A stretch of 64,000 bases of DNA from Frankiaceae bacterium. GTDB taxonomy: Bacteria; Actinomycetota; Actinomycetes; JAFAQI01. Of the stretch, positions 13,025 through 60,335 are shown piece after piece (the stretch's first letter is position 1; each line of letters opens with the position of its first letter). The stretch is from assembly GCA_025929315.1 (NCBI GenBank), contig JAICMI010000003.1, forward strand, positions 132 through 64,131, written 5' to 3'. The position numbers and the translations under genes are program-made. The notes under the pieces are model-generated. The model searched no databases. It had not been told where the DNA came from and was given only the letters and a program-made list of their open reading frames with translations.

Positions 13025-14143
13025 TTATGCCGACATGGCCCGCTGTCGAGGCGTCCGGGCTGTACGACGCCGACGCAGGATCGTCGGCGCGGGTCCGGGA
13101 TGTGCGAACAGATAGCCCTGACCAAGCGGCACGCGCGCGTTGCGCAGCGTCAACAGGTCCGCGCGTGACTCGATGCCTTCGGCGACCAACGTCGCGCCGA
13201 CGTCCTCCGCGAAGGACACGAGCGAGCGAACGAGTGCCTCGCGGCTGTGGTCCTCGCTGATCCCGCGGATGAGATGCGTGTCCAGCTTGATGATCTCGGG
13301 ACTGAGCTCGAGCACATGGCGGAAGCTCGCGAAACCCGCTCCGGCGTCGTCGACGGCGAGGCGAAGTCCGCGCGCACGGAGACCGCCGATGACGCGAAGG
13401 AGCAGGTCGTACTCGCGCACCACTTCGTGCTCGGTCACCTCGACGACAAGTCGATCCGCCGGCACGTCGGCGACGAGTCGTTCGAAGTCCTTGGACACCA
13501 GCGTCGCCGGTGACACGTTGACTGCAAGATATGGCGTCGCTTGGAACGCAGCGAGGTGGGCGAGAGCGCTTCGGACGCAGCTCAGCTCCAGCTCGTGCTG
13601 CAGGCCTGCGTGCGACGCGCGTTCCAACCAGACGTTGGGCGGTTCATAAGGCGACGTCTGGAACCGCGCCAGCGCCTCGTAGCCGACCGGCGTGCCGAGT
13701 GGCTTGTCGAGCGCGACGATCGGCTGCAGATGCATCTCCAGTGCGTCGCCGGCGGCGATGACGTCCCGCACGGTAACGGCGAGCTGCGAGGCGGCCAGCT
13801 GACGCGCGGCCGCGTCAGGCCCTGTCTCGAGGGAGGCGCCGCCCGTGCGCGCCATTTCCTCGACGACGGCCAACGCGTCAGCCAGCCGACCTTGCAGCTC
13901 GGACACCACTCCGGGCGGGAACTCCAGCGCGAACAGGTGCCGGGTCTGTGCAAATGCCGTTTCGATGTCCCCGGACAGCCGCTCGAGCCGGTCTCGCGCC
14001 GGCGCCGGCAACGTGCGTTGGATCGCCCCTACCTCGTCCCAGTGCCGTCGCCATGCCTGGAGCAACGACGACAGGGACTCGAGTGGCTGCGGCGGAGCGG
14101 GCTGCACGCGAGCCGCTCGTCGTCGAGCCATGTCAACTCCCAT
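13025..14143 (-). CDS. EAL-domain protein (putative c-di-GMP phosphodiesterase) with uncharacterised N-terminal domain
   Basis: Contains LQPIVAL...GYEALARF, NVSP, EVTEH, DDAGAGFASF, IKLD and VAEGIES. Start placed at ATG 14143 (GGAG lies 5 nt upstream); 14131 or 14254 are alternatives. Confidence 0.85.
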   Translation of the reverse strand: MGVDMARRRAARVQPAPPQPLESLSSLLQAWRRHWDEVGAIQRTLPAPARDRLERLSGDIETAFAQTRHLFALEFPPGVVSELQGRLADALAVVEEMARTGGASLETGPDAAARQLAASQLAVTVRDVIAAGDALEMHLQPIVALDKPLGTPVGYEALARFQTSPYEPPNVWLERASHAGLQHELELSCVRSALAHLAAFQATPYLAVNVSPATLVSKDFERLVADVPADRLVVEVTEHEVVREYDLLLRVIGGLRARGLRLAVDDAGAGFASFRHVLELSPEIIKLDTHLIRGISEDHSREALVRSLVSFAEDVGATLVAEGIESRADLLTLRNARVPLGQGYLFAHPGPAPTILRRRRTARTPRQRAMSA

Positions 14144-14245
14144 GACGCTCCGGGGAATGAGCGCTTTTGCGTCGATTGGCAGTATGGCACCAATGTCACG
14201 ATCTGTAATCACTTGAATGCCCGCTGTGGTGCGTGACAATGCGTC

Positions 14246-15322
14246 GTGGCGCAAAATTCACCCGTTGAGCCGAGCGCCGATCGACGGCGTCTCGAGGACT
14301 TGTTGGTACGTCTGGGTGCCACCGAGGCCGAGGCCCGGACGGCCGTGGCGGGCCCCGGTGGTGGCGATCTCGCGCTCGAGCTCAACCTTCGGTCGGGACC
14401 GCCGCTGACCCTGGCGGAGGCCACCGAGCGCACAGGCCTCAGCGGCGAAGACTTCGTACGCCTGCTGCATGCACTCGGACTCGTGCCGCCGGCGCCCGGC
14501 ACACCCGCGGTGCCGCGCGACGTCGTCGACGCGATCCCTGTCATCAGCGACGCGGCAGGGCTGCTGGGCGAGGAGACCGCGCTGGGCATCGCACGCGTCG
14601 TCGGCTCCACGTCGAGTCGCATCGCCGAGGCGCTGGTGGACGCCTTCCGCACCGAGTTCGAGGTGCCGAGCCTCACCGCCGGGACCTCCTACGCCGACGT
14701 CGTCGAGCAGTACGTCGACCTCACGCGCGCCGCGCTGCCGCCGTTCCTCGGCCTTCTGGCGGCGGTCATCAAGGCGCATCTGGTCAAGGTCTCCTACGGC
14801 GCCTGGACGCCGGACGCCCAGAACCAAGCCGCCCGGCGCGATCTGTTCGTGGGCTTCGTCGACCTCGTCGGTTACACCGCGCTTTCCCGAACCCTGACGC
14901 CCCGCGACCTCACGACACTCCTCGCCCGTTTCGAGGATCTCGTTGCCGACGTGGTCACGGCCGGCACCGGCCGACTGGTCAAGCTCATCGGTGACGGCGC
15001 GATGTTCGTGTGCGACACCCCGATGGCCGGTTGCCGGGTTGCTCTGGCCCTGTGTGATCGACTCGCCCTCGCCGAAACGCTGCCGCCGGCACGCGTCGGC
15101 GCCGACTTCGGCTCGGTCCTCAGCCTGTACGGCGACTACTACGGCGACGTCGTCAACCGAGCGGCGCGCCTGGTCGCCCTGGCCAATCCGGGCACGGTGG
15201 TGGTGTCCGACAGCGCGGCTGCCGGGCTCGACAACAAGTCCTTCGGTCTCGAGCGGCTTCCGGCGCAAGCCCTCAAGGGTTTCCATGCACCAGCCGTCAC
15301 CTATCGACTGTTGCCCGGCTGA
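14246..15322 (+). CDS. Class III adenylate cyclase with Rv1264/Rv2212-like N-terminal regulatory region
   Basis: 358 aa, GTG start. The catalytic core contains FVGFVDLVGYTALS, VKLIGDGAMFVCD and GDVVNRAARLVALANPGTVVVS. The N-terminal region of about 190 aa is laid out like the mycobacterial pH- and lipid-responsive cyclases (by eye). Confidence 0.85.
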   Translation: MAQNSPVEPSADRRRLEDLLVRLGATEAEARTAVAGPGGGDLALELNLRSGPPLTLAEATERTGLSGEDFVRLLHALGLVPPAPGTPAVPRDVVDAIPVISDAAGLLGEETALGIARVVGSTSSRIAEALVDAFRTEFEVPSLTAGTSYADVVEQYVDLTRAALPPFLGLLAAVIKAHLVKVSYGAWTPDAQNQAARRDLFVGFVDLVGYTALSRTLTPRDLTTLLARFEDLVADVVTAGTGRLVKLIGDGAMFVCDTPMAGCRVALALCDRLALAETLPPARVGADFGSVLSLYGDYYGDVVNRAARLVALANPGTVVVSDSAAAGLDNKSFGLERLPAQALKGFHAPAVTYRLLPG

Positions 15323-15374
15323 CCCGTCGACCTCCCTGGCGATTCGCCCGTATTCGTGGTGCATTGTTAGGGCT

Positions 15375-15390
15375 TGTGACGCAGGTCACA
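15375..15390. promoter_or_regulatory. Perfect CRP-type palindrome TGTGA-N6-TCACA
   Basis: TGTGACGCAGGTCACA lies in the 102-bp gap between the cyclase stop and the transporter operon. It is centred about 42 bp upstream of GTG 15425. A GGAGG RBS is at 15413-15417. Confidence 0.55.
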
Positions 15391-15424
15391 CCCTGCGCGC
15401 CGCCGTCCGACCGGAGGCCGACTC

Positions 15425-17236
15425 GTGCCCAGCAACCCCCTGCTCGGGAAGTTCGGACCGCTCGTCCTTCTCGCTGTCGTCCAACTCGTGCTGGTGCTCG
15501 CCGCACCGTCCACGGCACCAACCGCCAACAGTGCCAGTGCGCTGTCGCCGTACGGCACGACCAGTGACGGGACGGTGGCAGGCCCCGCCGGCAGCGCTGC
15601 AGTGCCGGGCGCGGCCACGACAGCCGCGGGCCCGGCCGGCACCGTGGCGGGCGGCTCGTCCGCTGCCGGCGGCGCCGTGGTCGCCGGTGGCGCGCGCGGC
15701 GGCCAGAGCGCGGGAGGCGCAGTGGCCGGAGTAGGTGGCGACACCTCGCACTGCGTCAACGGGCGGCAGTTCGACCCGTCGATCGACTACTTCGCTCCGC
15801 CGTGCGTCCCCGGCGCACTCGGCGCCGCCAACGTGAACAACGGCGGCGCGACCTGGCCGGGTGTCACCGACAAGCAGATCGAGCTGGTCGTCTATGTCGC
15901 GGACTACGGCGCCGAGGTCGACCAGATCCTCAAGGCACAAGGTCTCTACTACAACGCGAGCGACGCAAAGACGTGGAACGCGGCGTACGCCAAGTTCATC
16001 AACTCGCACTACCAGCTCTACGGCCGGTCGTTGCACGTCGACACCGTGCAAGGTGGCTGCCGCACCGTGCCGCCGGACTACCCGTGCCTCATCAAGGACA
16101 TGGACTCGATCGTCGCCAAGTACCACCCCTACGGCGTCCTGTGGGACACAACGGTCTGCTCGGCCTGCTTCGCCGAGCTGTCGCGCCTACATGTCGTCAA
16201 CTTCGGCGGCAGTGGATTCTCCGACGCGTTCCACAACGCCAACATGCCTTACTCGTACGACGCCGGTGAGTCCTCGACGCGCATCGAGCTCGGCCTCGCG
16301 CAGTGGTGGTGCAACCAGATGACGAGCCAAGGGGGCTCGGGCCGAACAGCGATCTTCGCCGGTGACCAGAACCGGGCTGAGGACTTCCGCAAGAGACCGC
16401 GCGTGCTCGGTGTCATCAGCACCAACGACCCGGACAACGAGGACACCGTCAAGAAGGTCCTCTATCCCGCGCTGCAGAAGGGTTGCGGCGAGCAGGTCAA
16501 GCACGAGTACTTCTACGCCCAGGACATCAACACCGCGACGCAACAGTCACAGGCGGCAGCCGCGGCGATGAACACGCCGAACAGCCCGGCAACGAGCGTC
16601 GTCTGCTTGTGTGACCCCGTCGCCCCGCAGTTCGGTCAGAACGCGTTCGCCACGGACAACTACTGGCCCGAGTCGATCATGGCCAGTGATCAGACGATGG
16701 ACTGGGACTCCAACGCCCAGACCTACTCCCAAGGCGGGCAGAGTCCAGGACTTTCGTGTCCCAACCCGGGCAAGGGCTGTCCGTGGGACAACGCCATCGG
16801 TCTCGGCGCCGAGGGCGCGCAGGAGAACCCCAACAACATGCCCGCCGTCAAGGTCTATCGACTCGCCAGTGGCCAGAAGGGACTGCCCAAGAACGGGCAA
16901 CCACCGGCGCTGACGATCGTCTGGGCCAACCTCAGCATGTTCGCCAGCCTCATCGAGAACACCGGCCCGCTGCTGACCCCCGCCCGCATGCAGGCCGCTG
17001 CCCCTCATATGGGCTTGCGCGGCGGCGGCAGGACCGGCCACGAGCAGCGCGGGTTCGACGGCAGCAGCTGGTGCTGGACGCAGGACTTCCGCGTTGCCTA
17101 CTGGGACAAGAACAGGAAGAGTCCCTTCAACGGTGAGAACGGCACTTACGTCTCGATCGAAGGGCAGCGGTTCACCCTCGGCCACTTCCCGAGGATCAAC
17201 CAGCCGCCGGCTCCTGTCGCCGCCAACCGTTCATGA
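15425..17236 (+). CDS. Membrane-anchored, Cys-rich periplasmic-binding-protein-like protein (ABC cassette 1, component 1)
   Basis: 603 aa. An N-terminal hydrophobic helix is followed by about 90 aa of Ala/Gly/Ser/Thr linker and then a globular domain. GVTDKQIELVV resembles the LivK-type SBP N-terminus. Paralogue of 30077..31780. ATGA overlap with the permease gene. Confidence 0.75.
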   Translation: MPSNPLLGKFGPLVLLAVVQLVLVLAAPSTAPTANSASALSPYGTTSDGTVAGPAGSAAVPGAATTAAGPAGTVAGGSSAAGGAVVAGGARGGQSAGGAVAGVGGDTSHCVNGRQFDPSIDYFAPPCVPGALGAANVNNGGATWPGVTDKQIELVVYVADYGAEVDQILKAQGLYYNASDAKTWNAAYAKFINSHYQLYGRSLHVDTVQGGCRTVPPDYPCLIKDMDSIVAKYHPYGVLWDTTVCSACFAELSRLHVVNFGGSGFSDAFHNANMPYSYDAGESSTRIELGLAQWWCNQMTSQGGSGRTAIFAGDQNRAEDFRKRPRVLGVISTNDPDNEDTVKKVLYPALQKGCGEQVKHEYFYAQDINTATQQSQAAAAAMNTPNSPATSVVCLCDPVAPQFGQNAFATDNYWPESIMASDQTMDWDSNAQTYSQGGQSPGLSCPNPGKGCPWDNAIGLGAEGAQENPNNMPAVKVYRLASGQKGLPKNGQPPALTIVWANLSMFASLIENTGPLLTPARMQAAAPHMGLRGGGRTGHEQRGFDGSSWCWTQDFRVAYWDKNRKSPFNGENGTYVSIEGQRFTLGHFPRINQPPAPVAANRS

Positions 17237-19428
17237 GCGGCTACGGGTTGACCGTTCCGCCGTCGTTCAGCAGCGCGGTGGATCGCGTCACCGCACTGGC
17301 CAGCAGTGACCGGCGAGCCGCTCTTTACGGCCGCCGGGCGCTGCTGTCGCTCGCCTTCGTGTTCGCGGTCGACAAGGTTTTCGGACTGACGCCGTTCTTG
17401 TTCGTCAACGGGCTCGCTCTCGGCGCGCTCTACGGCATCATCGGCGTGGCCCTGGTGCTCACCTATCGCACCAGCCGCATCATCAACTTCGCCGCGGCCG
17501 CGGTAGGCGCCGTACCCGCCATCACAGCGGTGCTCTTGTCGACGGCCGACCACGTCAACTACTTGCTGACGATGCCGATCGCGATCATCGGCGGTCTGCT
17601 CAGCGGCGCGCTCACCGAGATCTTCGTACTGCGTCGGTTCAGGACTGCGTCTCGGCTGATCGTCACCGTGGTGTCGATCGGCATTGCGCAGTCCTTCGCG
17701 GCTCTCGGGTTCTTCATCCCGGTGTGGTTCGGCGAGAGGGCGACCGGGGTGCCCAAGGTGGCGACGCCTTGGCAGAACCTGCAGTACCACAACTCCCGCG
17801 GTGAGCCGATCCTGACCGGCAACCAGGTCTTCGCGTTTGCGATGGTGCTGCTGCTGACGTTCGGCCTGATGATCTTCCTGAAGCGCAGCCGGATGGGCAT
17901 TGCCCTGCGCGCGTCATCGGAGAACAGTGACCGAGCCGCGCTGCTCGGCGTACCGGTCAACCGCGTCAACACGATTGCCTGGGCGCTCGCGGGACTGATG
18001 TCGGCGATGGCGATCTTCGCGATCGCTCCTTTGTACGGCGTCCCCAGCGACGCGACGCTCGGCTACGACACGCTGCTCTACGGCCTCGCAGCCGCGGTCG
18101 TGGCCCGGATGGAGAACCTCGGCCTCGCCCTGCTGATGGGCCTGGGCATCGGCCTGCTCATCGACACATCCGTCGCCCACACCGGGACCAACGACATCGC
18201 GCAAGCGTTGATGCTGCCGGTGATTCTCGTATCACTGCTCACACAACGGCGATCACGATCACGAGCAGTCGACGCCAACGCGTCGAGCTGGCAGACCATC
18301 AGCGTCTTCCGGCCGATTCCGCTGGAGCTGCGCGCGCTGCCCGAGGTGCAGCGCATGCGCATGGCCCTTTTCGCCGTCACTGCGGGCGTTGCGATCGGGC
18401 TGCCTTACTTCGTGAGCGACGCCACGATGCCCGGCCTGCAGATCCTGCCGATCATCGGCCTCATCGCGGTCTCGCTGGTCATCCTCACCGGCTGGGCCGG
18501 GCAGATCAGTCTCGGGCAGTACGGGCTGGTCGGCATCGGCGCTGCCGCAGCCGGCGGCCTGATCGGGCGGCACAACATCGACTTCTTCGCCGCTATCGGC
18601 ATCGGGATCGCTGCCGGCGCGATCACCGCCGTGATCATCGGCCTGCCGGCCGTCCGGATGCAGGGTCTCTACCTGGCGGTGACCACGCTCGCGTTCGGTT
18701 ACGCGATGCAGTTCTACGTTCTCAACAGTCACTACTGGATCGGGCGGCATCTGCTGCCGGACCAGCTGGCGGCGAGCATCCGCCGGCCGATGCTCTACGG
18801 CAAGTTCGCACTCGAAGGCAGCCGTGGTGGCGAACGCGCCTTCTACTTCCTGTGTCTCGGTTTTCTGGTGCTCGGACTCGCCGCTGCGGCGTCGTTCCGT
18901 CGTCAGCACAGCGGACGCATGCTCATCGCGCTCCGGGACAACCAACGGGCGGCGTCGTCCTACGCGATCGCACCGGTCCGGACCCGACTGTCCGCCTTCG
19001 CCATCTCGGGAGGTTTCGCAGGTTGCGCCGGCGTGCTGTTCGCCTACCAACAGCACCAGGTGCTGCCCGGGACCTACGACGTCTACAGCGCGATCGCGTT
19101 GTTCCTGGCTGCAGCTGTCGGTGGCCTCGGGTCACTCGCGTTCGGCACGCTGTCGGTCGTCGCGTTCCAGGCGACGATCCTGTGGGGACCGATGGCCTGG
19201 CACCACCTCGGGAACACGTTCTCGTCGGTGGTCCCGTTGCTGCTGACGGGCCCGCTGCTCGTGCTCAACCTCTACGCCAACCCCGGCGGCCTGGCCGGAT
19301 GGGCGTTCGCCAAGCGCGACGACTGGCTGCGCGGGCTGGCGGACCGGCACAGGATTCACGTTCCCTCTCTCGTCGCCGACAGCCTCGTCGAGGAAACCCG
19401 CATGCCCGAACCGGAGCTGGCGAAGTGA
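17233..19428 (+). CDS. Branched-chain-amino-acid-type (HAAT) ABC permease, fused LivH-like + LivM-like halves
   Basis: 731 aa. N-terminal half: LALGALYGIIGVALVLTYRTSRIINFA. C-terminal half: SLVILTGWAGQISLGQYGLVGIGAAAAG. Confidence 0.9.
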   Translation: MSGYGLTVPPSFSSAVDRVTALASSDRRAALYGRRALLSLAFVFAVDKVFGLTPFLFVNGLALGALYGIIGVALVLTYRTSRIINFAAAAVGAVPAITAVLLSTADHVNYLLTMPIAIIGGLLSGALTEIFVLRRFRTASRLIVTVVSIGIAQSFAALGFFIPVWFGERATGVPKVATPWQNLQYHNSRGEPILTGNQVFAFAMVLLLTFGLMIFLKRSRMGIALRASSENSDRAALLGVPVNRVNTIAWALAGLMSAMAIFAIAPLYGVPSDATLGYDTLLYGLAAAVVARMENLGLALLMGLGIGLLIDTSVAHTGTNDIAQALMLPVILVSLLTQRRSRSRAVDANASSWQTISVFRPIPLELRALPEVQRMRMALFAVTAGVAIGLPYFVSDATMPGLQILPIIGLIAVSLVILTGWAGQISLGQYGLVGIGAAAAGGLIGRHNIDFFAAIGIGIAAGAITAVIIGLPAVRMQGLYLAVTTLAFGYAMQFYVLNSHYWIGRHLLPDQLAASIRRPMLYGKFALEGSRGGERAFYFLCLGFLVLGLAAAASFRRQHSGRMLIALRDNQRAASSYAIAPVRTRLSAFAISGGFAGCAGVLFAYQQHQVLPGTYDVYSAIALFLAAAVGGLGSLAFGTLSVVAFQATILWGPMAWHHLGNTFSSVVPLLLTGPLLVLNLYANPGGLAGWAFAKRDDWLRGLADRHRIHVPSLVADSLVEETRMPEPELAK

Positions 19429-21047
19429 GCGCATTGTTGACGTGTCGCGGAGTCGACGTCGCCTACGACAAGGTGCAGGTGCTGTTCGGCGTCGACCTCG
19501 ACGTGCACGAAGGCGAGATCGTCGCACTGCTCGGCACCAACGGCGCGGGCAAGTCGACGATGCTCAAGGCGATCTCGGGCCTCGTGCAACCCATTGCGGG
19601 ACACATCGAGTTCGACGGGCGAGACATCACCAAGTGCACGCCGCAGGAGACAACCGCGCTGGGCATCGTGCAAGTACCGGGCGGCAAGGCCGTCTTCCCG
19701 ACGTTGACCGTCGCGGAGCACTTCAAGGCCGGGTGCTGGCTCTATGCGAAGCAGTCCAACGACGAGGTGGCGCAGCGCACCGCCAAGGTCATCGAGATGT
19801 TCCCGCGGCTGCAGGAACGCTGGAACCAGCTGGCGGGCGACCTGTCCGGCGGCGAGCAGCAGCAGCTCGCACTCGGCATGGCGTTCGTCGCGCGGCCGCG
19901 GCTTCTCGTCATCGACGAGCTGTCGCTGGGTCTCGCTCCGGTCATCGTCGAGCGGTTGCTCGACGCCGTACGCGCTATTCATGCCGAAGGTGCGACGGTC
20001 GTTCTCGTCGAGCAGTCGGTCAACGTCGCACTGACCATTGCCACGCGCGCCTACTTCATGGAGAAGGGCCAGGTGCGGTTCGAGGGCCCGACTACGGATC
20101 TCCTCGCCCGGGACGATGTCCTGCGTTCGGTGTTCCTCGCCCGTGCCAACCACAGTCTTGACAGCAAGAGCAAGAACGGCCAGGCCCGCACTCGCTCGCG
20201 CGCCAGGAAAGCTGCCGAGACAGTGGCCCGGCCGGAGGCGCTGGCGGTGCGCCACCTCAGTCACACCTTCGGCGGCATCTCCGCGGTCAACCAGGTGACC
20301 TTCTCGGTCCACGCCGGCGAGATCCTCGGGCTGATCGGACCGAACGGCGCCGGCAAGACCACGATCTTCGACATCATCTCGGGCCATCTGCCGACGCAGC
20401 GCGGTCACATCGTCCTGGGTGACAAGGACATCAGTCACTGGGCGCCGGAACGACGCGCCGCGGCGGGTCTCGGGCGCTCATTCCAGGACGCGCGCATCTT
20501 CCCGTCGCTGACCGTCGCCGAGAACATCGCGCTGGGACTTGAACGACACATCGCCGTGCGCGACCACGTGTCGGCGTTGTTCGGCACCCCCGCCATCCGC
20601 GAGTCCGAGATGGACGTTGCCTTCACCGTGGGCGACTTGATCGAGCTGATGGGGCTGGGTGCGTTCCGCGACAAGTTCGTCGCCGAGCTCTCGACGGGCT
20701 CGCGCCGCATCGTCGACCTGGCGATGTCGATCGCACACGACCCGGCCGTGCTGCTGCTCGATGAGCCGTCCAGCGGCATCGCACAGAAGGAGACCGAGGC
20801 GCTCGGTCCGTTGCTGCAGCGCATTCGCGAGGAGACGGGTTGCGCGATGCTCGTCATCGAGCACGACATGCCGCTCATCACCTCGCTGTCGGACTCGATC
20901 GTCGCGCTCGACCTCGGCGCCGTACTCGTTCAAGGGCCGCCGGAACGCGTGCTCGCGGACGAACGGGTGGTCACCGCCTACCTGGGCGGCGATCCCGCAA
21001 CGATCCGGCGCAGCACCGCACGTGAAGCAGAAAAGGTGGGGGCCTGA
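19425..21047 (+). CDS. ABC ATPase, two fused cassettes (LivF-like then LivG-like)
   Basis: 540 aa from GTG 19425 (GTGA overlap with the permease stop). Two Walker A motifs (GTNGAGKST, GPNGAGKTT), two LSGGEQQ/LSTGSRR signatures and two Walker B motifs are present. The ORF-track ORF 18852..21047 has a spurious N-terminal part. Confidence 0.9.
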   Translation: MSALLTCRGVDVAYDKVQVLFGVDLDVHEGEIVALLGTNGAGKSTMLKAISGLVQPIAGHIEFDGRDITKCTPQETTALGIVQVPGGKAVFPTLTVAEHFKAGCWLYAKQSNDEVAQRTAKVIEMFPRLQERWNQLAGDLSGGEQQQLALGMAFVARPRLLVIDELSLGLAPVIVERLLDAVRAIHAEGATVVLVEQSVNVALTIATRAYFMEKGQVRFEGPTTDLLARDDVLRSVFLARANHSLDSKSKNGQARTRSRARKAAETVARPEALAVRHLSHTFGGISAVNQVTFSVHAGEILGLIGPNGAGKTTIFDIISGHLPTQRGHIVLGDKDISHWAPERRAAAGLGRSFQDARIFPSLTVAENIALGLERHIAVRDHVSALFGTPAIRESEMDVAFTVGDLIELMGLGAFRDKFVAELSTGSRRIVDLAMSIAHDPAVLLLDEPSSGIAQKETEALGPLLQRIREETGCAMLVIEHDMPLITSLSDSIVALDLGAVLVQGPPERVLADERVVTAYLGGDPATIRRSTAREAEKVGA

Positions 21048-22198
21048 TGAGCGACGGACGACACCGCGCGCCACGCACGCGGCTTAATGTTCTGCAGCGC
21101 ATAGGGGCAGCAGCGGTTCTGCTCGGCGCCGGCGGCTTGGGCGCGGCGATGTGGCCGACGGCGGCCGCCGCGGACGCGCCGGTGCAGACCGCTTGGTACA
21201 ACGCGTTGTCCGGTGGCGGTCAAGCTGTCCCCGACCCGGCGACCCCGGCCGGCGGCTTGCACGTCTCGGTTGCCTCCGGACAGGTCCTCGCCTTCGCGGC
21301 GATGCAGTACGCCCTCGCCGAAGGCTCGACGGCCACCATCGAGCTCAAGATCAGCAACCTCACCGCGACGCCCGTCATCAACCCGACCTCGCCGACCACC
21401 GACCCCGCCGCCTACGTCGTTGCCTGTCCGATCAGCGGCACGTGGACGGCCGGGGACGACCAGCCGATGGACGCGGCGCCGAAGTACGACTGCACTCGCT
21501 CGATTCCCGGCAACCTGTCCTCCGACCAGACGACGTTGACCTTCCTCGCGGACGCCTCGATCGAAACCCTGCCGGGTCAGCTCAGTCTCGCGATCGTGCC
21601 TGTTGTCACCGATGAGATCCCCGGTGTCGGGACGCCGGCCCCGGCGGACACCACCCAGCCGTTCTCGCTCGACGTCGCCAAGCCGGATGCCTCATCGCTG
21701 ATCGTCACGGGCACATCGGCCCTGCCACCACCACCGGCGCCGCCGAAGACGGCCACGACGGGCGCCACGTCCACGGCGACGAAGGGATCGGCCGCCGGTG
21801 CCGGTGCAAGCAGCGGGTCGTCGAGCGTCAACCTTCCGGGCTCGCTGACCAGCAACTCGGCGTCGACGTCGACGGACGCCGGCACGAGCCCGGTCGTCGC
21901 GCCGACCAACCAGGCGCCGGCGGCCGCCCCGGCCGCCGCGACGTCATCCACGAACGACCGTGCGCACAACGTGGCACTCGCGATGCTCCTGCTGATCGGC
22001 ATCGGCGTCGTCGGGATGAGCAGCGGTCAGATGCAGCGAGCGCCGCGGCTGCTCGGCGGCGCGGGGCGTCACGCCGCAATGACCACCGGTGCAGCCGCAG
22101 CGGCAACGGCCGCTGCAGTTCCGGTGGGCGTCTACGGCAACCGAGGCCTCGGCCGCTTCAACAAACCCCGCACCGAACCCGCCCGCCCCCTCACCTGA
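21047..22198 (+). CDS. Secreted, C-terminally membrane-anchored Ala/Pro/Ser/Thr-rich protein, unknown function (cassette 1, component 4)
   Basis: 383 aa. Signal-like N-terminus (AAAVLLGAGGLGAAMWPTAAAADA), then a conserved globular region (AWYN, VVAC), a low-complexity tract, a TM helix (VALAMLLLIGIGVVGMS) and a basic tail (RGLGRFNKPR). Paralogue of 23852..24943. Its start overlaps the ATPase stop by 1 nt. Confidence 0.7.
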   Translation: MSDGRHRAPRTRLNVLQRIGAAAVLLGAGGLGAAMWPTAAAADAPVQTAWYNALSGGGQAVPDPATPAGGLHVSVASGQVLAFAAMQYALAEGSTATIELKISNLTATPVINPTSPTTDPAAYVVACPISGTWTAGDDQPMDAAPKYDCTRSIPGNLSSDQTTLTFLADASIETLPGQLSLAIVPVVTDEIPGVGTPAPADTTQPFSLDVAKPDASSLIVTGTSALPPPPAPPKTATTGATSTATKGSAAGAGASSGSSSVNLPGSLTSNSASTSTDAGTSPVVAPTNQAPAAAPAAATSSTNDRAHNVALAMLLLIGIGVVGMSSGQMQRAPRLLGGAGRHAAMTTGAAAAATAAAVPVGVYGNRGLGRFNKPRTEPARPLT

Positions 22199-35952: not shown

Positions 35953-36405
35953 TCAGGTGGTCGGCGGGCTGGCGGCGGCTTCGCGCAGCCGCTTGGCCAG
36001 ACCTGCCAGGAGCTTGCGAGACAGGCCGGGCACGTCGTCGATGGCGGCGTAGAACTCACGGCTGGAGAGCAAGACGGCCTGGGTGTCGCGGAGAGCCGTG
36101 ACGGTGGCGGTGCGCGGCCCGGGGTCGAGCAGCGCCTGCTCGCCCACGTAAGCCCCCCCACCGAGCTTGGCGAGGGTCTCGCCGCCGCTGGTGATGCCGA
36201 CCTCGCCGTCGATGATCACGTAGAACTCGTGGCCCGGCTCACCCTCGGTCATGAGCACGTCGCCGCCGCGGAAGTCGACGATCTCGGCGTGCCGGGCCAG
36301 CCGGTCGAGCTCCTTGTCCGTGCAAGCGGAGAACAGCGCCACCTGGGCCAGCAGCTTCTGCCGGTCGTGCTTTCCGGACATTCCGGCCCCCTCTGGGCGA
36401 GACAC
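35953..36405 (-). CDS. Stand-alone cyclic-nucleotide-binding domain protein
   Basis: About 142-150 aa. The cNMP-binding beta-barrel pattern is present (FRGGDVLMTEGEPGHEFYVIIDGEV ... GGGAYVGEQALLDPGPRTATVTA). No DNA-binding or other output domain follows. Confidence 0.85.
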   Translation of the reverse strand: MSRPEGAGMSGKHDRQKLLAQVALFSACTDKELDRLARHAEIVDFRGGDVLMTEGEPGHEFYVIIDGEVGITSGGETLAKLGGGAYVGEQALLDPGPRTATVTALRDTQAVLLSSREFYAAIDDVPGLSRKLLAGLAKRLREAAASPPTT

Positions 36406-36490: not shown

Positions 36491-36506
36491 TGTGAGATGC
36501 GCCACC
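36491..36506. promoter_or_regulatory. Weak CRP-like site TGTGA-N6-CCACC
   Basis: TGTGAGATGCGCCACC matches 8 of 10 consensus positions, with the GTG/CAC core retained. It directly abuts the inverted repeat. Confidence 0.25.
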
Positions 36507-50371: not shown

Positions 50372-50387
50372 AGTGACCTGGCTCACG
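50372..50387. promoter_or_regulatory. CRP-like palindrome AGTGA-N6-TCACG
   Basis: AGTGACCTGGCTCACG has a perfect GTGA-N6-TCAC core (8 of 10 against consensus). It lies 69-84 bp upstream of the SsgB-like ATG. Confidence 0.3.
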
Positions 50388-50455: not shown

Positions 50456-50881
50456 ATGCTGCAGCACCCCGCCCGCACCATCACCACGCCATTGCCGTTG
50501 ATCGTCACGACCGGCACCGGCGAGGCCACTCTCGATGCCGAGCTGCGCTACGACCCGGCCGACCCCTTCGCGGTCTCGCTCGCGATCGGCGTCGAGTGCG
50601 GTGACCCGGTCGTCTGGATCTTCGCCCGCGACCTGCTCTCCGCCGGCGTCGGATCGCCGCAGGGTGAGGGCGACATCACGATCGAGCCCGACTTCGCCAG
50701 CGACATGGACTCCGACGAGCGGATGCTGCGCCTCACTCTCGCCACCGACTGCCTCGCCACCATGCTCGTCCCGTCCGGACCGGTGGTCGAGTTCCTGGTC
50801 GAGACGTTCACCGTCGTACCGACCGGTTCCGAGCTGGACCGGGTCGACCTCGACGCCGAGATCGCCGCGCTGCTGAGCTGA
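50456..50881 (+). CDS. ssgB: SsgA-family sporulation/cell-division protein (SsgB-like)
   Basis: 141 aa from ATG 50456 (RBS GCAGGAG). LRYDPADPFAVSLAIG...VVWIFARDLL...GEGDI aligns by eye with Streptomyces SsgB (LRYDTADPYAV...VEWVFARDLL...GTGDV). Confidence 0.8.
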   Translation: MLQHPARTITTPLPLIVTTGTGEATLDAELRYDPADPFAVSLAIGVECGDPVVWIFARDLLSAGVGSPQGEGDITIEPDFASDMDSDERMLRLTLATDCLATMLVPSGPVVEFLVETFTVVPTGSELDRVDLDAEIAALLS

Positions 50882-57447: not shown

Positions 57448-58193
57448 TCAGATGTCGTAGACGGCGCCGGCCTCGACGATCGAAAGGTTGCCGTCGTAGA
57501 CCTGCTCCGCCTCCGCGAGCGTACGGCTCGCGTCGCCCCACGGCACCAGGTGGGTGAGCAACAGTCGCCCGACACCCGCCCAGCTCGCGTGCTCCGCCGC
57601 CTGCTTGCCCGTCAGGTGAATGTTCGGTGGGTTGGGGTCACCCTCGAGATAGGACGCCTCGCACAGGAACACGTCGACGTCTCGCGCCAACGTGACCAGC
57701 TCATCGCTGACTCCGCTGTCCGCGCTGTAAGCGAGGGTGCGACCTCCGGCGGTGATGCGCATGCCATAGGTCTCGATGGGGTGGTTGACCGTGCCGAGGT
57801 CGATGTCGAACGGACCGATGCCGATCCGACCAGGGCCGCCCACGGGATGGAAGTCGTATACCGCAGACAGCAGGTCGTCCACCGGTCGACCGAACGCGCC
57901 GGCAATGTGCGCTTCGACGTCGCTCGGACCATGTACGGGGACCGGACCCGGGGATCCGTCCGGGTGGTAGCGGCGTGCGTAGGTGTAGGTGATCAGATCG
58001 AGGTAGTGGTCGCCGTGAAGATGACTGAGCATCACGGCGTCGATGTCGAGCAGTCCACACGACCGTTGCAGCGCACCCGTTGAGCCGTTGCCTGCGTCGA
58101 TCAGCAGCCGGAAGCCGTCATGCTCGAGCAGGTACGACGAGCACGCGGCGTCGGGTCCGGGAAAGGTGCCGGCGCACCCGACGATCGTGAGCT

Positions 58194-58197
<4 letters not shown>
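57448..58197 (-). CDS. MBL-fold metallo-hydrolase (Rv1339-like)
   Basis: 249 aa. LLIDAGNG is present, along with the metallo-beta-lactamase motif [12 protein letters not shown]. Its position between rph and murI matches M. tuberculosis. Confidence 0.85.

Positions 58198-60335
<2,138 letters not shown>

What the first reader, a model, noticed from the sequence alone, without database searches (positions are those of the whole stretch)
14246..15424. Perfect CRP palindrome between an Rv1264-like adenylate cyclase gene and ABC operon 1
TGTGACGCAGGTCACA (15375-15390) matches the CRP/Crp consensus TGTGA-N6-TCACA at 10 of 10 positions and is fully palindromic. A crude expectation for a 10-position match in 64 kb is about 0.06 (64000/4^10, uncorrected for the high GC, which would lower it). 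It sits in a non-coding gap, centred about 42 bp upstream of the operon's GTG. The gene just upstream is a class III cyclase. Its N-terminal half resembles the regulatory domain of M. tuberculosis Rv1264/Rv2212, enzymes reported to respond to pH and fatty acids. The window also contains an Rv1339-like MBL hydrolase (57448-58197). The mycobacterial protein has been reported as a cAMP phosphodiesterase. A stand-alone cNMP-binding protein lies at 35953-36405. This suggests a local circuit: signal, then cAMP, then CRP, then the transporter.
Basis: partly seen in the sequence, partly recalled or inferred. Interest (0 to 1): 0.6.

Follow-up and report, generated by a model that had tools for sequence, protein, structure and literature searches.

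The report
Conserved cAMP-regulator site before transporter genes
The perfect 16-base palindrome is almost certainly a real docking site for the cell's cAMP-sensing regulator (Crp), conserved in front of the same nutrient-importer genes in every relative examined. It is an ordinary kind of switch, and its position points to shut-off rather than switch-on.

Summary
TGTGACGCAGGTCACA lies at 15375-15390 in the 102-bp gap between an Rv1264-type class III adenylyl cyclase gene and a LivHMGF-like ABC operon.

It is not a chance match:
- The incomplete 2.65-Mb genome assembly (MAG) encodes a Crp orthologue whose DNA-recognition helix is identical to that of M. tuberculosis Crp.
- 16 intergenic sites match the motif with 0-1 mismatch, against about 2.1 expected. 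That is the highest count among 30 scrambled control palindromes.
- An exact box precedes the orthologous first gene in all 11 same-family genomes and in one Frankiales MAG. One-mismatch versions occur in three more distant genomes.
- The ten consensus positions are 100% conserved, while the flanking intergenic DNA is 45-59% identical.

The "cAMP, CRP, transporter" link is therefore well supported. A conserved Shine-Dalgarno sequence and start codon lie 16-30 nt downstream of the box. The box is therefore too close to them for a class I or class II activating position, and repression or a roadblock is more likely.

The cyclase link rests only on gene order (9 of 15 loci), and the genome has at least 13 cyclase-domain genes.

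A near-identical second box (59064-59079) sits upstream of the operon formed by murI and the Rv1339-like phosphodiesterase gene. This suggests cAMP feedback. Overall this is a new member of a known kind, of modest interest.

The parts
15375..15390 (.). Crp/GlxR-type operator TGTGACGCAGGTCACA (perfect TGTGA-N6-TCACA)
   Evidence: Present as an exact box in 11 of 11 same-family orthologous loci, and as an exact or 1-mismatch box in 4 further loci. The ten consensus positions are 100% conserved and the 16-bp box is 97% identical, against 45-59% in the flanks.
14246..15322 (+). Rv1264-type class III adenylyl cyclase (N-terminal regulatory domain plus catalytic domain)
   Evidence: PF00211. Best PDB match is Rv1264. 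The family profile aligns 10-333 with 1y10 24-346, E 3e-30. PF16701 is found in 8 of 32 homologues. D206, K246, D250, D297, N304 and R308 align with Rv1264 D222, K261, D265, D312, N319 and R323, and are invariant in alignment A4.
15330..15340 (+). Conserved block ACCTCCCTGGC at fixed spacing (45-48 nt) upstream of the box; function unknown (a promoter element, or an anti-SD-like RNA segment)
   Evidence: 93% identity in 11 loci. Spacing. Unique in the genome except for one similar site. RNAalifold pairs it with the SD but finds no covariation.
15353..15366 (+). Second conserved block (TTCGTGGTGCATTG) 9 nt upstream of the box; a possible weak promoter element
   Evidence: 77% identity with fixed spacing to the box. 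It contains no canonical TANNNT hexamer.
15413..15417 (+). Shine-Dalgarno GGAGG of the first ABC gene
   Evidence: Present 7 nt before the GTG at 15425. GGAGG is present in the orthologues aligned, with variable spacing to the box (16-30 nt).
15425..17236 (+). 603-aa membrane-anchored protein, probably a divergent type I (LivJ-like) substrate-binding protein
   Evidence: No Pfam, NCBIfam or PDB sequence hit. The AF2 model is poor (pLDDT 49), but all top Foldseek hits are type I periplasmic binding proteins. The best is 4n03, E 8e-7.
17233..19428 (+). Fused LivH/LivM-type permease
   Evidence: PF02653, with LivH, LivM and UrtB/C NCBIfam matches.
19425..21047 (+). Fused double ABC ATPase (LivG/LivF-like)
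   Evidence: Two PF00005 stretches plus PF12399. Gene model.
21047..22198 (+). Uncharacterised last gene of the operon
Evidence: No Pfam hit.
59064..59079 (.). Second Crp-type box TGTGACGCAGGTCACG (15 of 16 bases identical to the first) upstream of murI and the phosphodiesterase gene
   Evidence: A 0-1 mismatch box sits at the same place in 10 related genomes.
59032..59037 (-). Conserved -10 hexamer TACATT of murI; the GTG follows 7 nt later, so a leaderless start is predicted
   Evidence: The box centre lies 47.5 bp upstream of the GTG at 59024.
58194..59024 (-). murI (glutamate racemase)
   Evidence: TIGR00067 at 237 bits, above its cut-off. The start was set from the conserved N-terminus.
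57448..58197 (-). Rv1339-like MBL-fold cyclic-nucleotide phosphodiesterase; overlaps the end of murI by 4 bp
   Evidence: NF041851, E 9e-67, full length, below the curated cut-off. The order murI then PDE is kept in 25 of 26 related genomes.
35953..36381 (-). Stand-alone cNMP-binding protein
   Evidence: PF00027, E 2e-18 on the minus-strand translation.

Best explanation
The palindrome is a functional DNA operator for the cell's Crp/GlxR-type cAMP receptor protein. The Crp orthologue is encoded elsewhere in the genome, on contig C163. The operator belongs to the control region of the LivHMGF-like ABC importer operon at 15425-22198.

Shown here:
- The sequence is present and perfect.
- The genome has a Crp orthologue with an identical recognition helix.
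- The motif is over-represented in intergenic DNA genome-wide.
- The box is strictly conserved in front of the orthologous operon, with or without the cyclase gene next to it.

Inferred:
- Because a conserved Shine-Dalgarno-led start codon follows only 16-30 nt after the box, the box must overlap the core promoter or lie just downstream of the transcription start.
- The spacing from box to SD varies between orthologues, whereas the spacing to two conserved upstream blocks is fixed.
- Crp bound there would therefore hinder RNA polymerase and repress the importer when Crp is active (probability about 0.6). It would not work as a class II activator.

The neighbouring Rv1264-type cyclase is one of at least 13 possible cAMP sources. 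Its conserved adjacency suggests, but does not show, a functional link.

A twin box upstream of murI and the Rv1339-like phosphodiesterase gene sits just upstream of where the -35 region would be. It probably couples phosphodiesterase expression to Crp, giving negative feedback on cAMP (probability about 0.5).

The confidence given (0.8) is for the core claim, a functional Crp-family operator of the ABC operon. The sign of regulation is less certain, as stated above.
For: - Exact box, with 0.06 expected per window.
- The Crp orthologue matches M. tuberculosis Crp (3h3u) at 281 bits, E 5e-83, over the full length. The segment GASRETVNKAL is identical.
- Genome-wide, intergenic exact sites number 4 against 0.055 expected, and 1-mismatch sites 12 against 2.05. 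There is no excess in coding DNA: 1 against 0.55, and 8 against 21.
- TGTGA ranks first of 30 same-composition control palindromes, with 16 sites against 0-7.
- Other predicted targets resemble known actinobacterial Crp/GlxR regulons: a WhiB-like gene, Rex, pckG, cell-wall hydrolases and a MenJ-like reductase.
- The box is exact in 11 of 11 same-family orthologous loci at 60-76% protein identity, and exact in Frankiales L044. It has 1 mismatch in G025, G026 and L040.
- Consensus positions are 100% conserved, against 45-59% for flanking intergenic columns.
- The box persists where the cyclase is absent (G008, G010, G025, G026, L040).
- Geometry: GGAGG and the conserved N-terminus MPSNPLLGKFGP fix the start codon. 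Box-to-SD spacing is 16-30 nt, and no TANNNT hexamer lies between them in any orthologue.
[quoted passage not shown] M. smegmatis Crp1 directly represses glpFKD, acsA1 and icl1 (PMC13720381).
Against: - No transcription start, binding or expression data exist for this uncultured organism.
- No recognisable promoter was found on either side of the box, so the placement of the box relative to the promoter is deduced only from the SD and start codon.
- Two further Crp-family paralogues, with RQSVN recognition helices, could bind the same box.
- M. tuberculosis Crp binds many sites without transcriptional consequence (PMC4117774 abstract).
- The gene calls behind the intergenic statistics come from my own crude codon-usage gene finder.
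Confidence: 0.8

Rival explanations
1. The box is a Crp-dependent activator site (class II-like): the signal raises cAMP, cAMP-Crp binds, and the importer is switched on.
For: - The box centre is 42.5 bp upstream of the GTG, which would equal about -41.5 if the mRNA were leaderless.
- No canonical -10 hexamer exists in the gap, and poor core promoters are typical of activator-dependent genes.
- Leaderless mRNAs occur in this genome, for example the predicted murI start.
Against: - GGAGG sits 7 nt before the GTG in G000, and GGAGG is present in the orthologues aligned, so the mRNA has a leader.
- With a leader long enough to include the SD, the box centre can be no further upstream than about -22 in G000.
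- Box-to-start spacing varies from -36.5 to about -50 among orthologues. This does not fit the face-of-helix requirement of class I or class II activation.
Confidence: 0.25
2. The box is real but is read mainly by one of the two other Crp/FNR-family paralogues (contigs C71 and C136), not by the Crp orthologue. In that case the signal might not be cAMP.
For: Two extra paralogues exist. Both have cNMP-binding and HTH_Crp_2 domains and RQSVN recognition helices. In M. tuberculosis, Cmr and Crp recognise overlapping motifs (PMC5758884 abstract).
Against: - The box is a perfect match to the motif established for Rv3676-type Crp, and the orthologue's recognition helix is identical.
- The other predicted targets (whiB-like, pck, cell-wall hydrolases) fit the Crp/GlxR regulon.
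- The paralogues replace the Glu of the R-E-x-x-x-R/K recognition motif with Gln.
Confidence: 0.12
3. The conserved palindrome acts at the RNA level. It would form a hairpin in a long 5' leader or inter-cistronic RNA, with the upstream CCUCC block pairing to the SD to gate translation. It would not act as a protein-binding DNA site.
For: RNAalifold predicts a 6-bp hairpin from the palindrome and a CCUCC:GGAGG helix enclosing it. The ACCTCCC block is conserved at fixed spacing.
Against: - The covariation term is -0.02 kcal/mol. All hairpin pairs are invariant, with no compensatory change in 11 sequences.
- Variants of the ACCTCCC block (CCCCC, CGTCAC) are not compensated in the SD.
- There is no Rfam match.
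- The same half-site sequence recurs, with different spacers, at about 16 unrelated intergenic sites. That is expected for a protein operator, not for a local RNA fold.
Confidence: 0.06
4. It is a chance palindrome with no function.
For: 0.06 expected per window is small but not negligible across a scan of many windows.
Against: The box is conserved in all 15 orthologous loci examined while the flanks diverge, and the motif is enriched in intergenic DNA genome-wide.
Confidence: 0.01

Closest known systems
M. tuberculosis Crp (Rv3676) / M. smegmatis Crp1 operators, consensus TGTGA-N6-TCACA
   Same: - Same 16-bp palindrome.
- The regulator here matches Rv3676 at E 5e-83 and has an identical recognition helix.
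- The predicted regulon overlaps known ones (whiB-like, cell-wall hydrolases, respiration and redox genes).
- Promoter-proximal sites that repress carbon-uptake and catabolic operons (glpFKD, acsA1, icl1) are documented (PMC13720381).
   Different: - The organism is an uncultured Mycobacteriales/Frankiaceae-like soil MAG, and nothing has been tested experimentally.
- The target is a LivHMGF-type importer with an atypical binding protein. I found no report of such a target.
- The site is a perfect consensus, whereas most validated mycobacterial sites deviate from it.
Corynebacterium glutamicum GlxR regulon
   Same: Close homologue (4cyd/3r6s, E about 1e-79). It is a global dual regulator using TGTGA-N6-TCACA. 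pck and rpf-type targets are, to my knowledge, known there, and similar genes carry boxes here.
   Different: GlxR sites favour an AT-rich spacer (TGTGAnnTAnnTCACA, from my own knowledge). Here the spacers are GC-rich and extend the palindrome (TGTGAC-N4-GTCACA).
E. coli CRP class I / class II activation
   Same: Same core motif and the same protein family.
   Different: The class positions (-41.5, -61.5) cannot be met here, given the SD-led start codon 16-30 nt after the box and the variable spacing among orthologues.
Crp control of cAMP phosphodiesterase genes (M. tuberculosis Rv0805)
   Same: - In the M. tuberculosis ChIP-seq table, a Crp site lies at -47.5 from the Rv0805 transcription start (PMC4117774 Table S3).
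- The second box here lies 47.5 bp upstream of the predicted leaderless murI-PDE start.
- Rv1338 and Rv1339 transcripts fall 1.7-2-fold in the crp mutant during exponential growth (Table S4).
   Different: - The phosphodiesterase here is the Rv1339 (MBL-fold) type, not the Rv0805 type.
- Rv1338 did not appear among the ChIP peaks in the stored part of that table.
- The box upstream of murI is restricted to part of this family (10 of about 18 genomes) and is absent in 8 other families of the class.
Rv1264 / Rv2212 pH- and fatty-acid-regulated adenylyl cyclases
   Same: Full-length profile homology covering the N-terminal regulatory domain, and all six catalytic residues.
   Different: - Sequence identity is low.
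- The protein itself does not reach the PF16701 threshold.
- Regulation by pH or lipid is untested.
- I found no report of conserved pairing with a divergent EAL gene and a Crp-controlled importer.

Membership tests
Crp/GlxR-type operator | 16-bp inverted repeat matching TGTGA-N6-TCACA | tested here: met
   10 of 10 consensus positions at 15375-15390.
Crp/GlxR-type operator | Cognate Crp with a conserved DNA-recognition helix encoded in the genome | tested here: met
   The C163 orthologue matches 3h3u at E 5e-83, and GASRETVNKAL is identical.
Crp/GlxR-type operator | Non-coding location in a gene's 5' region | tested here: met
   It lies in the 102-bp gap, with its centre 42.5 bp upstream of an SD-led GTG.
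Crp/GlxR-type operator | The motif forms a regulon, shown by intergenic over-representation | tested here: met
   16 intergenic sites with 0-1 mismatch against 2.1 expected. It ranks first of 30 scrambled controls.
Crp/GlxR-type operator | Conservation in orthologous regulatory regions (phylogenetic footprint) | tested here: met
   15 of 15 orthologous loci with a readable upstream region carry a 0-1 mismatch box. Consensus positions are 100% conserved in 11 same-family loci.
Crp/GlxR-type operator | Crp binding (in vitro or in vivo), and the effect of cAMP on it | not testable with these tools
   Needs EMSA, or ChIP in a surrogate host.
Crp/GlxR-type operator | Defined position relative to the transcription start | not testable with these tools
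Consensus promoter scans found nothing.
Rv1264-type class III adenylyl cyclase | Class III catalytic domain with metal-binding Asp pair, Lys/Asp substrate pair and Asn/Arg transition-state pair | tested here: met
   PF00211. D206, D250, K246, D297, N304 and R308 align with Rv1264 D222, D265, K261, D312, N319 and R323, and are invariant in 32 homologues.
Rv1264-type class III adenylyl cyclase | N-terminal Rv1264-type regulatory domain (PF16701) | tested here: met
   The family profile aligns 10-333 with 1y10 24-346, E 3e-30. 8 of 32 homologues hit PF16701, but the window's own protein does not reach that threshold.
Rv1264-type class III adenylyl cyclase | Activity regulated by pH or fatty acids | not testable with these tools
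   Needs an enzyme assay.
Rv1339-type cyclic-nucleotide phosphodiesterase (NF041851) | Full-length match above the curated cut-off | tested here: inconclusive
   E 9e-67 over 1-249 of 253 profile positions, but 225 bits against a 400-bit cut-off.
Rv1339-type cyclic-nucleotide phosphodiesterase (NF041851) | Gene order murI then PDE, as for Rv1338-Rv1339 | tested here: met
   There is a 4-bp overlap with murI. The order is kept in 25 of 26 related genomes.

The most novel reading that the evidence does not exclude
The arrangement of cyclase, Crp box and importer (with the divergent EAL gene in some genomes) is a conserved, self-contained sensing cassette. In this reading an Rv1264-type, lipid- or pH-gated cyclase reports on the importer's substrate or its consequence. 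It then shuts its neighbouring importer through a Crp roadblock. A twin operator raises expression of murI and the Rv1339-type phosphodiesterase, which resets cAMP. The conserved anti-SD-like block would add a translational layer. Together this would be a compact cAMP homeostat wired to one transporter, in a lineage with many cyclases.
Probability: 0.12. Interest if true: 0.55.

Novelty: new member of a known kind. Interest (0 to 1): 0.3.

Why it matters
This is a clean, computationally well-supported Crp target in an uncultured soil actinobacterial family. It extends the Crp/GlxR regulon to a LivHMGF-type importer whose binding protein and fourth component have no family assignment. That gives a regulatory handle on what the transporter is for: it is probably shut off when Crp is active.

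The twin box in front of murI and the Rv1339-type phosphodiesterase gene suggests Crp feedback on cAMP degradation. This can be tested in M. smegmatis or C. glutamicum, because the recognition helix is identical.

None of this changes current understanding of Crp. It is an ordinary, useful annotation.

Tried and rejected
- The sigma-70 consensus promoter scan of 14000-15700 found 0 sites.
- A TANNNT search in the upstream gaps of 13 orthologues found none near the box. Hand-searching for ECF- or SigF-like promoters gave nothing consistent. The transcription start therefore remains unknown.
- Rfam on 15250-15500 gave no match.
- RNAalifold on 11 orthologous leaders predicted a hairpin and a CCUCC:GGAGG helix, but with no covariation. 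The RNA-element reading was rejected as the main explanation.
- A genome-wide search for the ACCTCCCTGGC block found it essentially unique, so it is not a recurrent motif.
- The 603-aa first gene has no Pfam, NCBIfam or PDB sequence hit. The AF2 model from 11 sequences was poor (pLDDT 49). Its Foldseek matches, all type I binding proteins, are used only as a lead.
- An in-frame mini-ORF ending at the TGA inside the box was noticed in several orthologues. I dismissed it: it has no SD, and it rests on only two independent lineages.
- The cyclase's own promoter region has only a 3-mismatch site, so Crp control of the cyclase is not supported.
- The TetR-linked paralogous operon and 10 other paralogue loci carry no box.
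Full report
**Observation.**
The sequence TGTGACGCAGGTCACA is at 15375-15390. It is the only exact TGTGA-N6-TCACA in the window, and dinucleotide shuffles give 0.06 per window. It lies between the stop codon of a plus-strand gene (14246-15322) and a GTG at 15425 that is preceded by GGAGG (15413-15417). The box centre is 42.5 bp upstream of the GTG. A one-mismatch search revealed a second, nearly identical site with the same spacer, TGTGACGCAGGTCACG, at 59064-59079.

**The organism and its regulator.**
- The window is part of a 2.65-Mb assembly of 179 contigs, 68% G+C, rated 68% complete.
- Named relatives are uncultured soil MAGs labelled Mycobacteriales, Frankiaceae or Frankiales.
- The genome encodes three Crp-family proteins with an HTH_Crp_2 domain.
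- One, on contig C163 (224 aa), matches M. tuberculosis Crp (3h3u and others) over its full length at E 5e-83 and C. glutamicum GlxR at about 1e-79. Its recognition-helix segment GASRETVNKAL is identical to the mycobacterial one.
- The other two are more distant (E about 1e-28 to 1e-32) and have RQSVN in that helix.

**Is the motif used genome-wide?**
- I called genes with a codon-usage model of my own (2692 genes, 93% coding).
- In the 7% of the genome that is intergenic there are 4 exact sites (0.055 expected from composition) and 12 one-mismatch sites (2.05 expected).
- Coding DNA shows no excess: 1 against 0.55, and 8 against 21.
- As an empirical control I counted all 30 palindromes built from permutations of TGTGA. 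TGTGA ranks first with 16 intergenic sites. The others have 0-7, and none has more than one exact site.
- Genes next to these sites include a WhiB-like protein, Rex, GTP-dependent PEP carboxykinase, PafA, a MenJ-like reductase, two secreted cell-wall hydrolases, an MMPL transporter and a TetR regulator.
- This set resembles the published Crp/GlxR regulons (review PMC13720381).

**Phylogenetic footprint.**
- The first gene of the operon has orthologues at 60-76% protein identity in ten other same-family genomes with a readable upstream region. Every one of these loci, and G000 itself, has an exact TGTGA-N6-TCACA just upstream.
- A Frankiales MAG also has an exact box. Two genomes of a neighbouring family and one more distant Actinomycetota MAG have one-mismatch boxes. 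Three still more distant orthologues have none.
- In the 11-sequence alignment the ten consensus positions are invariant and the 16-bp box is 97% identical.
- By comparison, the flanking intergenic columns are 45-59% identical and the neighbouring coding sequence 72-76%.
- Eleven TetR-linked paralogous loci, including the window's own second operon, lack a box. Three other paralogues in G003, G025 and G026 carry a 0-1 mismatch box.
- The box is thus a specific, selected feature of this operon's control region.

**To which gene does the box belong?**
- The Rv1264-like cyclase lies directly upstream in 9 of the 15 box-bearing loci.
- In G008, G010, G025, G026 and L040 it is absent, yet the box remains with the ABC gene.
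- In G008 and G010 the upstream genes are an AraC-family regulator and a hydrolase.
- The cyclase's own upstream gap has no good Crp site.
- The genome holds at least 13 cyclase-domain genes.
- The Crp-to-importer link is therefore strong. The link from this particular cyclase to Crp is only a synteny argument.

**Direction of regulation.**
- No canonical promoter was found, and no TANNNT hexamer lies in the gap of any orthologue except one far-upstream hit in G010.
- All orthologues share the N-terminus MPSNPLLGKFGP, and GGAGG is present in the orthologues aligned. The mRNA therefore has a leader, and its start must lie upstream of the SD.
- The box ends 16-30 nt before the SD, and that distance varies between orthologues.
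- Two conserved blocks upstream, ACCTCCCTGGC (93% identity) and TTCGTGGTGCATTG, keep a fixed distance to the box.
- In G000 the box centre can therefore be no further upstream than about -22 from any transcription start. The box overlaps the core promoter or lies in the early transcribed region.
- M. smegmatis Crp1 directly represses glpFKD, acsA1 and icl1 from promoter-proximal sites (PMC13720381).
- I therefore favour repression or a roadblock (about 0.6) over the class II-like activation that the "42 bp upstream" remark suggests (about 0.25).
- This is an inference.

**RNA-level rival.**
- RNAalifold folds the palindrome into a 6-bp hairpin and pairs the ACCUCC block with the SD.
- However, the covariation term is -0.02 kcal/mol, every hairpin pair is invariant, and variants of the upstream block are not compensated.
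- There is no Rfam match.
- Invariant half-sites that recur at many unrelated loci with different spacers point to a protein operator.
- The anti-SD-like block remains unexplained.

**The neighbouring genes.**
- Cyclase: PF00211. The family profile aligns with Rv1264 across both domains (1y10 residues 24-346, E 3e-30). PF16701 is detected in 8 of 32 homologues, but not in this protein itself. The six catalytic residues are conserved.
- Operon: the 603-aa anchored protein, a fused LivH/LivM permease, a fused double ATPase and a 383-aa protein without family.
- The 603-aa protein has no sequence-family hit. A low-confidence model (pLDDT 49) nevertheless matches only type I periplasmic binding proteins. 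The best match is a "fatty acid ABC transporter" binding protein, 4n03, E 8e-7, with TM-scores of only 0.25-0.37. This is a lead, not a finding.

**The second box.**
- 59064-59079 overlaps the stop codon of cysK (59075-60040, minus strand).
- It lies 26 nt upstream of a conserved TACATT hexamer, which is 7 nt from the murI GTG (59024). This is a typical leaderless arrangement, and it puts the box centre at about -47.5.
- murI overlaps the Rv1339-like phosphodiesterase gene by 4 bp. The gene order is kept in 25 of 26 related genomes.
- A 0-1 mismatch box occupies the same place in 10 genomes of this and the neighbouring family. It is absent in 8 other families of the class.
- In the M. tuberculosis ChIP-seq table, a Crp site lies at -47.5 of the phosphodiesterase gene Rv0805. 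Several other sites lie between -43.5 and -48.5 (PMC4117774 Table S3).
- Rv1338 and Rv1339 transcripts are 1.7-2-fold lower in the crp mutant during exponential growth (Table S4).
- Crp-dependent expression of a cAMP phosphodiesterase, giving negative feedback, is therefore plausible here. It has a precedent in kind, though not for the Rv1339 type.

**Verdict.**
It is a new member of a well-known kind. Interest is modest.

Noticed in passing
window 59064-59079 (with 59032-59037 and 57448-59024): A second Crp box, 15 of 16 bases identical to the first, lies about 47.5 bp upstream of a predicted leaderless operon of murI and the Rv1339-like phosphodiesterase gene. It is conserved in 10 related genomes and may provide Crp feedback on cAMP degradation.
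   Followed up: yes
window 15330-15340: A conserved, non-palindromic block ACCTCCCTGGC sits at fixed spacing upstream of the box. It resembles the anti-SD end of 16S rRNA and could pair with the operon's GGAGG. There is no covariation, and its function is unknown.
   Followed up: partly
window 59041-59055: An inverted repeat GGAACC-CGT-GGTTCC lies between the murI box and the -10 hexamer. A related GAAC...GTTgCGG pattern appears in the relatives that carry the box. It could be a cysK terminator stem or another operator.
   Followed up: no
window 50372-50387 and 36491-36506: Two intergenic two-mismatch Crp-like sites: AGTGACCTGGCTCACG, upstream of the gene at 50456-50881, and TGTGAGATGCGCCACC, in the gap next to the cNMP-binding protein gene. 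At two mismatches the genome shows no intergenic excess (39 against 34 expected), so these are weak candidates.
   Followed up: partly
   Followed up: yes
L036 2841-2856 (G008); L018 1343-1380 (G026): Some relatives carry extra Crp-like boxes upstream of the main one. G008 has a second box 107 bp upstream. G026 has two more boxes 69 and 91 bp upstream.
   Followed up: no
genome contigs C71 (about 16.0-16.7 kb) and C136 (about 9.1-9.8 kb): Two additional Crp-family paralogues have RQSVN recognition helices. The 68%-complete genome also has at least 13 class III cyclase-domain genes, a cAMP gene load like that of mycobacteria.
   Followed up: partly
window 15425-17236: The 603-aa first gene of the operon has no sequence family. 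A low-confidence structure model hits only type I periplasmic binding proteins, the best being a 'fatty acid ABC transporter' binding protein (4n03). Acyl-CoA dehydrogenase and acyl-CoA synthetase genes lie nearby.
   Followed up: partly
window 13025-14254 (minus): An EAL-domain protein is encoded divergently from the cyclase. The EAL-cyclase pair is also present in at least three relatives (L035, L037, L038).
   Followed up: partly
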